Of a stretch of DNA of 64,000 bases, positions 20,391 to 24,580 are shown piece by piece. Origin of the DNA: Promethearchaeota archaeon (GTDB taxonomy: Archaea > Asgardarchaeota > Lokiarchaeia > Sigyniarchaeales > SOKP01); assembly GCA_016840085.1 (NCBI GenBank), contig JAEOTA010000012.1, positions 32,001 through 96,000 of the forward strand. The letters are read 5' to 3'. The translations under genes were made by a program, and so were the position numbers. The notes under the pieces are model-generated. The model made no database searches and was not told where the DNA came from. It saw nothing but the letters and a program-made list of their open reading frames with translations. The stretch's first letter is position 1. Every line of letters begins with the position of its first letter.

Positions 20391-20573
20391 ATGGTCAAAG
20401 TTAAAAAATGTAGCTTTTGTGGGTACGACATTCCTATAGGTCGAGGGGTAATGTTTATCCAAAAGAACGGTGTAATATATAATTTTTGTACTAACAAATG
20501 TAGAAAAGCATTGTTGGTTTATAAAAAAAAAGCAAGAAAAACTAGATGGACCGCTTATTACGGGAAAGAATGA
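20391..20573 (+). CDS. rpl24e: 50S ribosomal protein L24e
   Basis: CSFCGYDIPIGRGVMFI...FCTNKC...RWT. Confidence 0.95.
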   Translation: MVKVKKCSFCGYDIPIGRGVMFIQKNGVIYNFCTNKCRKALLVYKKKARKTRWTAYYGKE

Positions 20574-20612: not shown

Positions 20613-20654
20613 TTATTGTAATCGAGGAAATTTAAGTAGTTCATCGATCAGGTC
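20613..20654 (-). repeat. Synonymously recoded second copy of the rpoN 3' end (DLIDELLKFPRLQ*)
   Basis: gac ctg atc gat gaa cta ctt aaa ttt cct cga tta caa taa versus gat tta ata gat gag cta ctc aaa ttt cct aga tta cag taa at 20777-20736. Confidence 0.9.
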
Positions 20655-20735
20655 AAGTTGATCTATATAAATATAGTACTCAAATTCCTTTAGATTAAAA
20701 TAAAACGAATCAGAATCATATTTATTTAATCTAGA

Positions 20736-20967
20736 TTACTGTAATCTAGGAAATTTGAGTAGCTCATCTATTAAATCTACATGACTTACACTTATAAGGC
20801 GAAAATGCCTACTAATTTACGATCATGCGTTTACAACAAAAGCGTTCAATACCAAGCTCCTTAAACGCTTTTTCTGAGCTCTCTCCTTTTTCTAAATACT
20901 CTAAATACGGTTCATATACATGGGCTATTAATTTACCACAGGAGAAGCATCTCACAGGTATGATTAT
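20736..20967 (-). CDS. rpoN: DNA-directed RNA polymerase subunit N (Rpo10/RPB10), interrupted by a 31-nt insert; join(20817..20967,20736..20785)
   Basis: Joined product is (M)IIPVRCFSCGKLIAHVYEPYLEYLEKGESSEKAFKELGIERFCCKRMIV/SHVDLIDELLKFPRLQ (66 aa), with both RPB10 Zn motifs; GAGGAG RBS precedes an ATA start. Confidence 0.93.
20786..20816 (-). other. Candidate bulge-helix-bulge-like intron in rpoN (31 nt)
   Basis: AUUAGUAGGCAUUUUCGCCUUAUAAGUGUAA contains UAG UAG in frame and an AGGC/GCCU hairpin; flanking exons pair (GCAUGA/UCAUGU). Confidence 0.65.
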
Positions 20968-21098
20968 CGTTAATCTCCTCTATCTATATCAAATTTTCTT
21001 CTCATTTAATAAAATAGATGATCCCTTCTAAAAAAAATTTTTGATTTTTATTTACATCCAATTTTAAAAGGACAAAATACACTCAACATTTAGAACTT

Positions 21099-21938
21099 TT
21101 AAATTTCAACTAAACTACTATTTAAATAAGTCGGAATTATGGTTATTAGATTATTTCTCAAATATATTACTTTTAATGATGTTAAATTTTTAATTGATGC
21201 AGGAAGTGTTTTAAGCTTATTTTTCTCTAAAAATAAGATCTCAAGATTAGATAAATTTCCAATTGCGTCTGTTAGCTCTTGCAAGTGATTATCGTCTAAA
21301 TATAATTTTTTTAAAGAAGTTAGATTTGCTATTAATTTAGGAATATGCCTCAATCTATTGTGATCAAGACTAAGAGATTCAAGATCTTTTAATCCAAAAA
21401 TTGGTTCTGGAATAGAACTAAGACCACAACTATCCAAATTGATATGTTTTACTGAACAAATTTTCCCAGAATCAACGTAATCCCAAAACTGGTCAAGACC
21501 GATAACTCCATGAATAAAGTCCTCGTCATTAGTATTCTTAAGACGTACTAAGTGTAATTTTACACCCGGTTTATGAGCTCGAATCTTATCCCGTAAATCT
21601 TTAAGATAAAACTTTCTCTCTCTTACAAATCTTTTGTCCCATAACCCTTTCTCATGCTCCCATTTTGAAGCGTCAATTATTTTGGTCGTTAAATCATCAG
21701 GGAGAACAGATCCAGTTAAAAGAATAAAATAACCAAGAACAAGGTAAGTCTTCCTTCTTGAAGATCGTCTTTCAACTATTTTCATGATTTTATCGAAACT
21801 ATCTTCAAAAATATCCCTAGTTAATACTCTATCATCATTATGATAGTCTTTTAGATTTATCCCACATGCTTTTATGAAAAAAGATGCAAGGTCGGATTCT
21901 TCGTCTCCTTCCATAATTTCAGCTGTTAATTTTGCCAT
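21099..21938 (-). CDS. Leucine-rich repeat protein
   Basis: Repeated LxxLxLxxNxLxxLP units in the C-terminal half. Confidence 0.9.
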   Translation of the reverse strand: MAKLTAEIMEGDEESDLASFFIKACGINLKDYHNDDRVLTRDIFEDSFDKIMKIVERRSSRRKTYLVLGYFILLTGSVLPDDLTTKIIDASKWEHEKGLWDKRFVRERKFYLKDLRDKIRAHKPGVKLHLVRLKNTNDEDFIHGVIGLDQFWDYVDSGKICSVKHINLDSCGLSSIPEPIFGLKDLESLSLDHNRLRHIPKLIANLTSLKKLYLDDNHLQELTDAIGNLSNLEILFLEKNKLKTLPASIKNLTSLKVIYLRNNLITIIPTYLNSSLVEI

Positions 21939-22010
21939 AAAAACAACTATAAAATTTTCCTCATTATCAAAATAAAAAAATAAATATTTAAATAGTACAC
22001 ATATTATATT

Positions 22011-22369
22011 TCATTTCCCTAAAAAGTGACTTGTATAAAAGAGCTTAGCTTCATCAAATGTCATACCATCAAACAGATCACTCATTATTTCATCAATTTT
22101 GTTATAAATTTTATAAGTATTTATAGTACTCTCTGAATAACCAAGGTCTCGTAATAAATCTTCAGCAGTATCGCTCTCGATTATTAATCTTTTTGCTCTT
22201 GGTTTATCAAATAACTCAAGTTTTTCAACTCTAATTCCACGCATATTTTTCTCAACAAATCTTTCAACATTCCATTGGTCTACATCTAACTGATCAGCAA
22301 GTTGAATCGTTGTAATAAATCCTTTACTGATATAGGACGAAATTAATGATTTTAGATTTTTGAAAGCTC
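22011..22369 (-). pseudogene. 5'-truncated hypothetical gene (HTH-like fragment)
   Basis: Frame of track ORF 22011-22244 stays open upstream (KNLKSLISSYISKGFITTIQLADQLDVDQWNVERFVEKN) to a TGA near 22370, with no ATG/GTG/TTG start in that stretch. Confidence 0.5.
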
Positions 22370-22581
22370 ATGCACAGTTAGAAGAGACCTATTTTCATAT
22401 TACTGAAACTTACACTTTAGATGATTTTTTACCATTAGCAAAAGCCAAATGTAATAATTGTGGTTATTTTATTATTCAATTGGACAGTTATAATTATTAT
22501 TTAGATAAAGGCGAGTGTCCTAAGTGTTTTTCCAATACCTATTTCAAAATAAATGATGGAAAAAAGGAGATGGTGAACTAA
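22360..22581 (+). CDS. Small Zn-ribbon protein, possibly 5'-truncated
   Basis: CNNC...CPKC pair; no room for a promoter or RBS against the opposing fragment. Confidence 0.55.
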   Translation: MKAHAQLEETYFHITETYTLDDFLPLAKAKCNNCGYFIIQLDSYNYYLDKGECPKCFSNTYFKINDGKKEMVN

Positions 22582-22761
22582 ATGGGATATGAGGGGAGAT
22601 GAAATAATTCTGAAAGAGTTTGCTGTTCAGCCGATTCAATTGAAGCCGTACTTAGCTGTATCTTATCCATGACCACAGGAAAAGGAAAGGTCTTTATCTA
22701 CGAATTTGGCAAGGATGGGAAAATATCGAAATTGCGTAAAATAATCACCATTACAGATTAA
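22582..22761 (+). pseudogene. Small ORF with in-frame TGA at codon 7
   Basis: GGAGATGGTGA RBS; MGYEGR*NNSERVCCSADSIEAVLSCILSMTTGKGKVFIYEFGKDGKISKLRKIITITD*. Confidence 0.5.
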
Positions 22762-22779
22762 AATAATGAGGGAAAAATA

Positions 22780-22944
22780 ATGAATAGTAATGATATGGAA
22801 TGGTTGAATAGTTTTAGGAAAGAAATATATGTTGAATTCGATCAATGTGGGAATGATCGTCAAAAATTAGAAAAGGTTGCGTCAACGTTAGATGTTATTG
22901 ATCACATAATCAATCATTTTAAGGCAAAATATAATTTAAAATAA
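22780..22944 (+). CDS. Small hypothetical protein (54 aa)
   Basis: GAGGG RBS; MNSNDMEWLNSFRKEIYVEFDQCGNDRQKLEKVASTLDVIDHIINHFKAKYNLK*. Confidence 0.55.
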   Translation: MNSNDMEWLNSFRKEIYVEFDQCGNDRQKLEKVASTLDVIDHIINHFKAKYNLK

Positions 22945-23134
22945 AGTTTATTCTTTAAATTCTAATCAAATCATTAATATAATATTACCTTCTAATTTTT
23001 TTTTCTTTATTTTTGTTTCTTCTTCCGATTAGTATTGATTGGGTTTAATTCTTATTTAGTTATAAGTACCATCTAGCGAGGATTGAACGAAAATTAAAAA
23101 ATCTCACACCCATTTTCATTTATTACTTTTTTTT

Positions 23135-24580
23135 CTAGGTAATCATGTTTTTGTATTTTTCAAGGTCTATATTATATAAAAAAGGTTTAAGATGGTTGTC
23201 CATTAAAACTCTCCGAATAGGTTCAAGTTCAGGATTATTAACAACGTTTTTTAATTCATTCGGGTCATTTTTTAGGTCAAATAGTTCGACAGGTTTTTGA
23301 GTATCACTTTTAACTGTTAATTTATAACGTTCATTTCGAACCATCGAATATCCATATACTTCGCTAAAAATAACTTCCTTAATCTTTTGAGCATTAGGAT
23401 CATTAGGACCATTTTTAATTGTTGGTAAATTTGAAATTCCATTATTTTTCGTTAAAGGTTTTGCATCAGCAATCTCAATCAATGATGCGGCTATATCAAG
23501 ATGATCTGTTAATCCTTGGCATTCCCAACCTTTAATACCTCCAGGAGGTCTAATTATTAAGGGAATTCGTAAAGCTCCTTCATAAAACACTATTTTATGA
23601 CTCATCATATGGTCTCCAAGCATTTCACCATGATCAGAATTATAAATTATCCACGTATTATGTGATAAACCTTTTTCTTCGACAGCTTTGAGAATTTTTC
23701 CTATATATTCGTCGATAAGGCTAATTTTCCCATAATAATAAGTTCGTAAGAGTTGACATTGTTCTTGTCTCATATCATGCAATCCACTCCAAGCTAATAC
23801 CATTTTTACGTAAGAGGGTAGAGGTTTCTGAGGCCATTTAAATATTCCTAATGGCATTTCCTCCGATTTATACATATCTCTATATTTTTGGGGTGAATCG
23901 AATGGATCGTGAGGACCTGGAAAAAGTATTTGAAGGTAAAAGGGCTTTTTTTTAGTATAATTACTTATCCATTCTACTGCGGTACGACCTGTATAACTAT
24001 CTAGATGATCTTCATCAGGAAGTGGGCATGGTGCTAATTCCCAATGTTTACCAGTTCCTCTCGCCCATCCTTTCCAATAATCTACCATATATCTTCTATG
24101 AATTCTTAACAATCCTTTTTTTTCAAGATAATCTGTATATGGTGAATTATGTCTAATTGTCGCAAGAGGTCCAGTAAGTTCATGGATACCTAAAAAACCC
24201 CAATTCTTTAAATCATCCTTTCTTTCATTCGTATGATTCCAATCCTTTCCTTTCGCACCATGAACATAAAGATGGGTTTTACCAATTACGGCAGTATGAT
24301 ATCCTGCATCCCGAATATTACGAACATGACTTCGGCTTAAAGGAGAAGCTTCATTGTTGTTTGTCCAAATACCATGTTCACAGACATATTGACCCATCAT
24401 CATCGAAGCTCTTGCTGGCATACAAAGTGGTGAGTTTGTACAACAATTAGTAAAGTTAACACCTTCAGAAGCTAATTTATCTAAATTAGGAGTAATTACA
24501 GATGGATGCCCAACACATCCAAGTGTGTCACCGCGGTGTTGGTCTGAAAAAATATATATTATATTTGGTTTTTCTGCCAT
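23135..24580 (-). CDS. Sulfatase (formylglycine type)
   Basis: KPNIIYIFSDQHR, CMPAR (CxPxR), GKTH, PHDP, SDHGEMLGDH. Confidence 0.93.
   Translation of the reverse strand: MAEKPNIIYIFSDQHRGDTLGCVGHPSVITPNLDKLASEGVNFTNCCTNSPLCMPARASMMMGQYVCEHGIWTNNNEASPLSRSHVRNIRDAGYHTAVIGKTHLYVHGAKGKDWNHTNERKDDLKNWGFLGIHELTGPLATIRHNSPYTDYLEKKGLLRIHRRYMVDYWKGWARGTGKHWELAPCPLPDEDHLDSYTGRTAVEWISNYTKKKPFYLQILFPGPHDPFDSPQKYRDMYKSEEMPLGIFKWPQKPLPSYVKMVLAWSGLHDMRQEQCQLLRTYYYGKISLIDEYIGKILKAVEEKGLSHNTWIIYNSDHGEMLGDHMMSHKIVFYEGALRIPLIIRPPGGIKGWECQGLTDHLDIAASLIEIADAKPLTKNNGISNLPTIKNGPNDPNAQKIKEVIFSEVYGYSMVRNERYKLTVKSDTQKPVELFDLKNDPNELKNVVNNPELEPIRRVLMDNHLKPFLYNIDLEKYKNMIT

What the first reader, a model, noticed from the sequence alone, without database searches (positions are those of the whole stretch)
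20736..20967. Candidate BHB-type intron in the mRNA of RNA polymerase subunit Rpo10 (rpoN)
Seen: the minus strand encodes an unannotated, otherwise intact Rpo10 that breaks after ...RFCCKRMIV and resumes 31 nt later in another frame as SHVDLIDELL. The insert (20816-20786) carries tandem UAG stops. The pre-mRNA reads GCAUGA-UCGU-AA^A-UUAGUAGGC-AUUUUC-GCCUUAUAA-GUGU-AA^G-UCAUGU. This gives an exon-exon stem (GCAUGA/UCAUGU), a 4-nt central segment (UCGU/GUGU), a 3-nt purine bulge 3' of it on each strand, and an inner hairpin (UUA/UAA, AGGC/GCCU). Cutting after the second bulge nucleotide on each strand joins GUA A + GU CAU and restores the frame. Established: this is the cleavage geometry of the archaeal tRNA-splicing endonuclease EndA, with ligation by RtcB; short mRNA introns of this type are known from crenarchaeal cbf5. 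Inference: a spliced mRNA intron in a core transcription gene of an Asgard-type archaeon, possibly a regulatory switch, since unspliced RNA gives a 51-aa truncation. Caveats: the central helix is weak (U.U, C-G, two G.U), and GUAA at both junctions makes the boundary ambiguous and also fits a 27-bp insertion with a 4-bp target duplication.
Basis: partly seen in the sequence, partly recalled or inferred. Interest (0 to 1): 0.92.

Follow-up and report, generated by a model that had tools for sequence, protein, structure and literature searches.

The report
Mobile tRNA-type mini-intron in Asgard rpo10
The only gene found for the small RNA polymerase subunit Rpo10 in this Loki-type Asgard archaeon is broken by a 31-base insert shaped like a tRNA intron, which very probably has to be cut out of the messenger RNA and which has jumped between species together with a spare gene tail and a DNA-cutting (homing) enzyme gene.

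Summary
Confirmed. rpo10 (minus strand, 20967-20736) is split by a 31-nt insert (20816-20786); removing it gives a 66-aa Rpo10. The same-site insert occurs in 10 of 48 genomes of the genus and 7 metagenome loci. Its hairpin and central helix keep pairing through compensatory changes. Bulge-helix-bulge (BHB) excision gives the conserved junction in 17/17, and the second exon varies only silently. A +1 frameshift fails in two relatives. So EndA/RtcB splicing is very likely (0.85), but no RNA was available. The motif is 'relaxed' here (3 of 4 central pairs), and the catalytic EndA gene is missing from this assembly, apparently in a gap. Carriers are scattered on the host tree. Two hosts 23% apart share a 98%-identical intron plus tail. 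A second, older rpo10 tail lies downstream (20657-20613), and in six relatives a LAGLIDADG endonuclease gene sits right after rpo10; it is lost here. Collaborative homing is the best account (0.6). No support for a regulatory switch. The scan already reported this rpo10 intron, and similar introns in other genes, on other Lokiarchaeia DNA.

The parts
20975..20980 (-). Shine-Dalgarno-like GAGGAG, 7 nt before the first codon
   Evidence: sequence; the same leader type precedes non-AUG starts in relatives
20817..20967 (-). rpo10 exon 1 (50 codons + 1 nt; begins at ATA; holds all four zinc-binding cysteines)
   Evidence: NCBIfam PRK04016, profile positions 1-49 of 61
20823..20828 (-). 5' strand of exon-exon stem h (pairs with 20784-20779)
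   Evidence: 6/6 paired in all 16 distinct copies; this Arg codon is CGC in 17/17 carriers and 0/38 intronless genes
20819..20822 (-). 5' strand of central 4-nt helix H (pairs with 20791-20788); U.U, C-G, G.U, U.G here
   Evidence: three pairs formed in 16/16, one with changes on both sides in 3 copies; first position paired in 2/16
20786..20816 (-). 31-nt candidate BHB intron; predicted cuts 20817|20816 and 20786|20785; tandem UAG at 20814-20809; inner hairpin arms 20815-20807 and 20800-20792
20736..20785 (-). rpo10 exon 2 / incoming tail (C-terminal 16 residues and stop), silently recoded relative to the resident tail
   Evidence: 13 of 15 codons vary among 16 loci, all silently
20667..20735 (.). 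69-nt AT-rich spacer; position held by a LAGLIDADG endonuclease gene in relatives, no remnant detectable here
20613..20657 (-). second copy of the rpo10 3' end (displaced resident tail; its 5' part, up to about 20666, is decayed)
   Evidence: 50 nt, 78%, spacing 123; last 36 nt differ from intronless sister G076 at 1 site versus 6 for the first tail
20391..20573 (+). rpl24e, convergent neighbour marking the resident right flank

Best explanation
The insert is a bulge-helix-bulge intron in the rpo10 mRNA. Shown: position, structure potential, conservation, and that exon 2 is under protein-level selection. Inferred: the pre-mRNA folds so that the two-subunit splicing endonuclease EndA cuts after the second base of each bulge and RtcB joins the exons, giving 66-aa Rpo10 and a 31-nt intron (probably circular). 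Second layer (about 0.6 on its own): the intron is part of a mobile cassette of intron + recoded gene tail + free-standing LAGLIDADG endonuclease gene. The nuclease is inferred to cut intronless rpo10 near the insertion point; repair copies the cassette in, displaces the resident tail, and the intron splits the target so the new allele is immune (collaborative homing). The nuclease gene then decays and is deleted, as in this window, leaving intron and spare tail. Recombination between the two tails can remove the rest and leave a bare intron, as in G025 and G072.
For: One rpo10 match per genome in all 10 carriers. Same-site insert in 10/48 congeners, in none of the other class members searched, and in 7 metagenome loci. 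91% of cells paired, 5 pairs with changes on both sides, 0/500 shuffles reach the covariation score, slid controls 31-52%. Bulge bases vary freely; both changes at the U.U position create U.G. BHB excision yields I-V-S/G-H in 17/17; the +1 frame has a stop in L080 and is out of register in the 30-nt L034. Exon 2: 13 of 15 codons vary, none changes a residue, while the spare tail has residue changes in 5 of 12 loci and loses its 5' part in most. The lost residues align in solved archaeal Rpo10 chains. RtcB present; catalytic-type EndA in 51 of 53 congeners including all 9 other carriers. Mobility: 9 changes for 10 carriers on an unlinked rtcB tree; monophyly rejected, KH and SH p=0, AU 0.0005; G008 vs G069 differ 23% in rtcB, 26% in exon 1, 2% in intron+tail; exon 1 tracks the host (Mantel p 0.003), intron+tail does not (p 0.24). 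Duplicated tail 7/10 carriers vs 0/38. Close LAGLIDADG subfamily found full-length only beside rpo10, 5/10 carriers vs 1/38; both motifs intact; fold matches PI-SceI and I-DmoI.
Against: No spliced RNA, circular intron or junction peptide was observed. The central helix has only 3 of 4 pairs here and in 14 of 16 copies, so it is 'relaxed' by the rule in bioRxiv 10.64898/2026.10.13.758758, which notes that this class is common by chance; an equally well paired register shifted by one base would not restore the frame. The catalytic EndA gene is not in this assembly; only a paralogue without the catalytic His was found, and the usual neighbours (ATP synthase A/B) are missing too, which points to an assembly gap and also weakens 'no second rpo10' for this one genome. 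The copies are related, so covariation counts are not independent. For homing: the target site is unknown; the nuclease lies upstream in 3 carriers and downstream of an intronless allele in G012; only 2/38 intronless alleles have the same six bases at the insertion point; the structure model is low-confidence (pLDDT 53). The packaged AU test gave p 0.39 despite a 1632 log-likelihood drop; my rerun contradicts it.
Confidence: 0.85

Rival explanations
1. Translational recoding: the ribosome shifts +1 at the start of the insert, or hops over it, and no RNA is cut.
For: The +1 frame is open through the insert in this window and in 15 of 17 copies; a hairpin follows the shift site.
Against: L080 has a stop in that frame and L034 has a 30-nt insert with two in-frame stops; the 10 extra residues and those just before the conserved His vary freely; recoding does not explain the exon-exon stem or the covarying central helix. 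A precise hop of 30-31 nt cannot be excluded by sequence.
Confidence: 0.04
2. The insert is an unspliced scar; the cell lives with a 51-aa Rpo10 or uses a second copy missing from the assembly.
For: The 51-aa product keeps the four zinc cysteines; the assembly has at least one real gap; the ATA start could look like decay.
Against: Exon 2 shows only silent variation while the untranslated spare tail decays; ten independent assemblies each have one copy; non-AUG starts after a strong Shine-Dalgarno occur in 13 of 38 intact intronless genes.
Confidence: 0.05
3. The intron is spliced but is an old inherited feature lost many times, and is kept as a regulatory switch coupling RNA polymerase supply to EndA/RtcB activity; the nuclease is an unrelated passenger at an insertion hotspot.
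For: Unspliced RNA would give a truncated subunit; the locus takes many insertions on both sides; nuclease position relative to rpo10 varies.
Against: Near-identical intron+tail in hosts 23% apart, carriers nested among intronless sisters, and a resident-type second tail all point to repeated arrival. 38 of 48 congeners do without it. Regulation could still arise secondarily.
Confidence: 0.08
4. The hairpin is a DNA recombination site (att- or dif-like) and the insert is removed, or acts, at the DNA level.
For: 9-bp inverted arms with a 6-bp spacer and a duplicated gene tail resemble integration sites (own knowledge of tyrosine-recombinase sites).
Against: Spacer is 5 in L034; arms use G.U-type pairs; pairing extends into a central helix and exon-exon stem that only make sense in RNA; the ORFs between the tails are LAGLIDADG proteins, no integrase was seen.
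Confidence: 0.03

Closest known systems
cbf5 pre-mRNA intron of Crenarchaeota (Desulfurococcales, Sulfolobales; Yokobori et al. 2009, PMC2738675)
   Same: Short (16-44 bp there, 30-31 here) intron in a coding sequence; often unconventional BHB; cuts between bulge bases 2 and 3; too short to encode a nuclease; genus has two EndA paralogues.
   Different: Different gene and phylum. cbf5 splicing is shown by cDNA and enzyme work, this is not. The cbf5 intron is inherited with losses; this one moves laterally with a duplicated tail and an adjacent nuclease gene. That paper only speculated that cbf5 introns derive from nuclease-bearing introns.
Haloferax volcanii HVO_1309 5' UTR BHB intron (PMC7714728)
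   Same: mRNA substrate of the archaeal splicing endonuclease.
   Different: Lies in the untranslated leader, does not break a reading frame; the paper names cbf5 as the only other mRNA case.
Archaeal rRNA BHB introns encoding LAGLIDADG homing endonucleases (I-DmoI type)
   Same: BHB intron linked to a two-motif LAGLIDADG enzyme; fold search ranks I-DmoI chains among the top hits; mobility by homing (PMC2738675).
   Different: There the nuclease gene is inside the intron of a non-coding RNA; here it is outside, mostly downstream and antisense, and the host is a protein gene.
Collaborative homing in phages (T3/T7-like, cyanophage, ICP1 terminase; PMC10448857)
   Same: Nuclease gene beside, not inside, an intron; both acquired together.
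   Different: Phage cases involve other intron classes (group I, own knowledge); cleavage at the intron site is shown there and untested here; a gene-tail duplication is part of this cassette.
Fungal mitochondrial free-standing homing endonuclease genes between a gene and its C-terminal duplicate (cob, atp6; PMC6279837)
   Same: Gene, then LAGLIDADG ORF(s), then a partial C-terminal duplicate.
   Different: No protein-spliced mini-intron at the junction; organellar, not archaeal.

Membership tests
Archaeal BHB (EndA/RtcB) intron | Two 3-nt bulges on opposite strands spaced by a 4-nt central helix, cuts after bulge base 2 giving the functional product | tested here: met
   Geometry present in 17/17; excision restores the conserved frame and junction in all
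Archaeal BHB (EndA/RtcB) intron | All four central pairs formed (canonical class) | tested here: not met
   3 of 4 here and in 14 of 16 distinct copies; 4 of 4 in L041 and L078. Fits the relaxed class; relaxed motifs are cut by two-subunit EndA (PMC6379350)
Archaeal BHB (EndA/RtcB) intron | Flanking exon helix h and intron helix h' | tested here: met
   h 6/6 in all copies; h' 91% paired with four doubly changed pairs
Archaeal BHB (EndA/RtcB) intron | Catalytic EndA and RtcB encoded by the host | tested here: inconclusive
   RtcB and one EndA paralogue lacking the catalytic His found; catalytic subunit and its neighbours absent from this assembly but present in 51 of 53 congeners
Archaeal BHB (EndA/RtcB) intron | Spliced RNA or in vitro cleavage demonstrated | not testable with these tools
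   No RNA run could be laid on the locus; needs RT-PCR or enzyme assay
cbf5 intron family | Insertion in cbf5 at the catalytic Asp codon | tested here: not met
   Host gene is rpo10; analogue, not member
Collaborative homing cassette | Free-standing homing endonuclease gene adjacent to the intron-bearing gene | tested here: inconclusive
   Met in 9 of 17 carrier loci (6 downstream, 3 upstream), absent in this window and genome
Collaborative homing cassette | Enzyme is a LAGLIDADG nuclease with two intact motifs | tested here: met
   Two motifs with acidic residues in 8 of 9 carrier copies; Pfam LAGLIDADG_3 over cut-off in two; fold hits PI-SceI, I-DmoI
Collaborative homing cassette | Lateral spread of intron with flanking DNA | tested here: met
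Collaborative homing cassette | Nuclease cuts the intronless allele at the intron insertion site and not the intron-bearing allele | not testable with these tools
   Needs a cleavage assay
Group I or group II self-splicing intron | Ribozyme core of several hundred bases | tested here: not met
   31 nt; no meaningful Rfam match

The most novel reading that the evidence does not exclude
Lokiarchaeial mRNA mini-introns arise and spread as the immunity modules of free-standing LAGLIDADG endonucleases: a hairpin placed in the cut site, removed from RNA by the host's tRNA-splicing enzymes, travels with a recoded gene tail and the nuclease, and stays behind as an orphan intron when the nuclease is lost. 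rpo10 shows the whole cycle (intact nuclease, broken nuclease, nuclease deleted, spare tail deleted) and would explain how protein-spliced introns invade essential protein genes in the archaea closest to eukaryotes.
Probability: 0.45. Interest if true: 0.92.

Novelty: new variant of a known kind. Interest (0 to 1): 0.8.

Why it matters
The papers I could search show EndA-type splicing inside an archaeal coding sequence for one gene, cbf5 (PMC2738675, PMC7714728; the 2009 paper says introns in other protein genes were predicted, not confirmed). A second well-supported case in a core RNA polymerase subunit of an Asgard archaeon means such genes are mis-annotated as broken and that mRNA splicing may be routine in this lineage. 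A 2026 census of Asgard tRNA introns found no general route by which BHB introns arrive (bioRxiv 10.64898/2026.10.13.758758). This locus offers a concrete, testable route: one nuclease, one candidate target, one 55-nt RNA substrate.

Tried and rejected
RNA evidence: no RNA holder was listed for the locus; this is not evidence either way. Rfam: only a chance SAM-V hit, E 2.8. No tRNA in the window; no other copy of the insert in the genome at up to 8 mismatches, and the covariance model found only one weak extra hit, E 0.044, so no tRNA-intron donor was identified. De novo genome scans for BHB motifs were too permissive to count introns (2655 and 681 candidates, no shuffled control). Sequence search of the nuclease against solved structures gave nothing; only the fold search did. 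The packaged AU test gave an inconsistent p 0.39; rerun. Readthrough of the first stop into the second tail (in frame in this window): rejected, since tail spacing is not a multiple of three in most relatives. Use of the second tail as an alternative exon: it lacks the acceptor stem here. ATA start as a sign of decay: rejected. A second intron or 5' duplication explaining the ATA start: not found. The two short rpo10 matches outside the genus that I fetched (G117, G147) are contig ends. Promoter scan uninformative, bacterial consensus only. I found no paper on the need for the Rpo10 C-terminus, so that point rests on conservation. Two pattern searches for the ferredoxin insert were too strict; a DNA search worked.

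Full report
Observation. On the minus strand, rpo10 runs from 20967 to 20736 and is broken after Val50 by 31 nt (20816-20786). Read through, it stops at tandem UAG after 51 residues; with the 31 nt removed it gives a 66-residue Rpo10. Exon 1 matches the NCBIfam Rpo10 model over positions 1-49 of 61, and the missing residues align in solved archaeal Rpo10 chains. It is the only rpo10 match in the genome. The 55-nt segment folds at -15.2 kcal/mol (z -3.4), with the central segment left open. In a permissive genome-wide scan the site ranks 7th of 2655 frame-restoring BHB-like motifs, so shape alone would not settle it.

Relatives. In 54 genomes of the genus, 48 have rpo10; 10 stop matching at profile position 49-50 and all 10 carry a 30-31 nt insert at the same site. 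None of the other class members searched shows this break. A pattern that does not assume the stems found seven more distinct carrier loci in metagenomes. Record titles name Promethearchaeota (Lokiarchaeia) for most carriers. An assembly artefact is excluded.

Structure under selection. On 16 distinct copies the full BHB structure is 91% paired, five pairs change on both sides, and no shuffle of 500 reaches the covariation score; sliding partners drops pairing to 31-52%. Three central pairs form in every copy, one of them switching C-G to U-A. The fourth is U.U in 14 copies and U.G in two. Bulge bases vary. By the rule of bioRxiv 10.64898/2026.10.13.758758 this is a relaxed motif, though with both outer helices. 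A register shifted by one base pairs about as well but would remove 29 nt and break the frame. The copies are related, so these counts are support, not probabilities.

The second exon is translated. BHB excision gives I-V-S-H or I-V-G-H in 17 of 17 loci, both seen in intronless relatives. Across 16 loci, 13 of 15 exon-2 codons vary and none changes a residue. The +1 frame is open through most inserts, but L080 has a stop in it and L034 is 30 nt with two in-frame stops, so frameshifting cannot be the shared mechanism. The ATA start is not decay: 13 of 38 intact intronless genes begin with ATA, ATT, ATC, GTC or TTC behind a Shine-Dalgarno sequence.

Machinery. RtcB is present. The one EndA match in this assembly lacks the catalytic His and belongs to the weaker-scoring paralogue class. 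The catalytic-type paralogue, with Tyr, His and Lys motifs in the four copies I read, is in 51 of 53 congeners and all nine other carriers. Its neighbours, including ATP synthase A/B, are also missing here, which indicates an assembly gap (inference). Two paralogues fit the two-subunit enzyme that cuts relaxed motifs (PMC6379350).

A second copy of the rpo10 3' end lies 123 nt downstream. Seven of 10 carrier genomes and none of 38 intronless ones have it. Here it differs from the intronless sister G076 at 1 of 36 nt, against 6 for the tail in use, so it is the displaced resident tail. It decays: residue changes in 5 of 12 loci and loss of its 5' part in most. In L034 and L080 it begins exactly at the 4-base repeat that flanks the intron. 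In six carrier loci an antisense ORF starts right after rpo10, between the two tails where both are seen. It has two LAGLIDADG motifs, weak Pfam support and fold hits to PI-SceI and I-DmoI from a low-confidence model. Full-length close relatives occur in the genus only beside rpo10: 5 of 10 carriers and 1 of 38 others. It is broken in G001, upstream in three loci, and absent here.

Mobility. On an unlinked rtcB tree the 10 carriers need 9 changes, no fewer than shuffled labels. Forcing them together costs about 1650 log-likelihood units; my rerun rejects it (KH and SH p 0, AU 0.0005), whereas the packaged test printed p 0.39, which I treat as a numerical failure. G008 and G069 differ by 23% in rtcB and 26% in exon 1 but 2% in intron plus tail; exon 1 tracks the host, intron plus tail does not. 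Their nucleases are sisters. The tree uses one gene and leaves out G031 and G074, which lack rtcB.

Mechanism. Shown: site, structure potential, selection on exon 2, lateral spread, linkage to a nuclease gene. Inferred: EndA cuts, RtcB joins (0.85). Inferred with less certainty (0.6): the nuclease cuts intronless rpo10 near the insertion point, repair copies in intron, tail and nuclease, and the intron protects the new allele. LAGLIDADG enzymes leave 4-nt overhangs (own knowledge), which could explain the 4-base repeat. A difficulty is that only 2 of 38 intronless alleles match the six bases at the insertion point, so the enzyme must tolerate silent changes or cut elsewhere. An ancestral large intron holding the nuclease, later split by a duplication, fits as well.

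Comparison. It works like the cbf5 intron (PMC2738675) but is not a member of that family. It combines that splicing mode with the collaborative-homing layout of phages (PMC10448857) and the duplicated C-terminus seen beside fungal mitochondrial nucleases (PMC6279837). I found no paper describing this combination or an rpo10 intron; the library lacks most subscription journals. Earlier notes of this scan report the same intron in other genomes with the same reading; I had reached it before reading them and tested it here. Two more frame-breaking hairpin inserts in this genome, in RNase HII and a ferredoxin gene, suggest the phenomenon is not confined to rpo10.

Verdict. Real, conserved and very probably spliced; mobile; no support for a regulatory role. 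New variant of a known kind; interest 0.8.

Noticed in passing
window 20965-20980 (minus): rpo10 starts at ATA behind GAGGAG. In the genus the gene has two 5' types, leaderless-looking ATG and Shine-Dalgarno-led ATA/ATT/ATC/GTC/GTT/TTC/TTG, and the two types are scattered among sister genomes. Non-AUG initiation in a core gene, unexplained.
   Followed up: partly
G000:C83:76510-76580 (+), L146: RNase HII gene has a 30-nt insert with an in-frame TAA right after the DEAG motif, with a perfect 9-bp hairpin and the same BHB layout; removal restores the motif.
   Followed up: partly
G000:C24:121159-121231 (minus), L149: 4Fe-4S ferredoxin-like gene next to an aldehyde oxidoreductase-like gene has a 32-nt insert inside a cysteine motif; the insert is also in G024 (sequence seen) and by match length in G016, while about 13 congeners are 32 nt shorter. 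No LAGLIDADG motif nearby.
   Followed up: partly
whole genome G000: The assembly lacks the catalytic endA, its MEMO1-like neighbour and all ATP synthase A/B genes despite 98.8% marker completeness: a probable gap.
   Followed up: yes
L072:2954-5677 (G012): Intronless rpo10 with a 907-aa protein ending in the same LAGLIDADG subfamily directly downstream, no spare tail, and a divergent target region (Thr instead of Val): possible intronless homing with a resistant allele.
   Followed up: partly
L032:348-1832, L082:197-2182, L083:1226-3226: The same nuclease subfamily sits upstream of rpo10 on the same strand, in L082/L083 fused to a long N-terminal zinc-ribbon-like region.
   Followed up: partly
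L034, about 190 nt downstream of the intron: The spare tail keeps an intact copy of the 3' BHB strand, so a longer alternative intron ending at the second tail is conceivable in that genome.
   Followed up: no
window 21099-24580: Five ORFs (leucine-rich repeat protein 21099-21938, small ORFs, sulfatase-like 23135-24580) lie between rpo10 and rpl7ae, which are adjacent in many relatives; both flanks of rpo10 are insertion hotspots in the genus.
   Followed up: no
window 20691-20733 and 20731-20749: Two inverted repeats in the spacer and over the first stop codon (21 nt at 76%, 9 nt perfect); possible terminator or remnant.
   Followed up: no
G000:C19:67022-68080 and C37:30717-31721: Two distant LAGLIDADG-like ORFs (27-30% identity to the rpo10-linked enzyme) elsewhere in this genome.
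   Followed up: no
G000:C81:60363-60406 (+), L175: Weak second hit of the intron covariance model, E 0.044.
   Followed up: no
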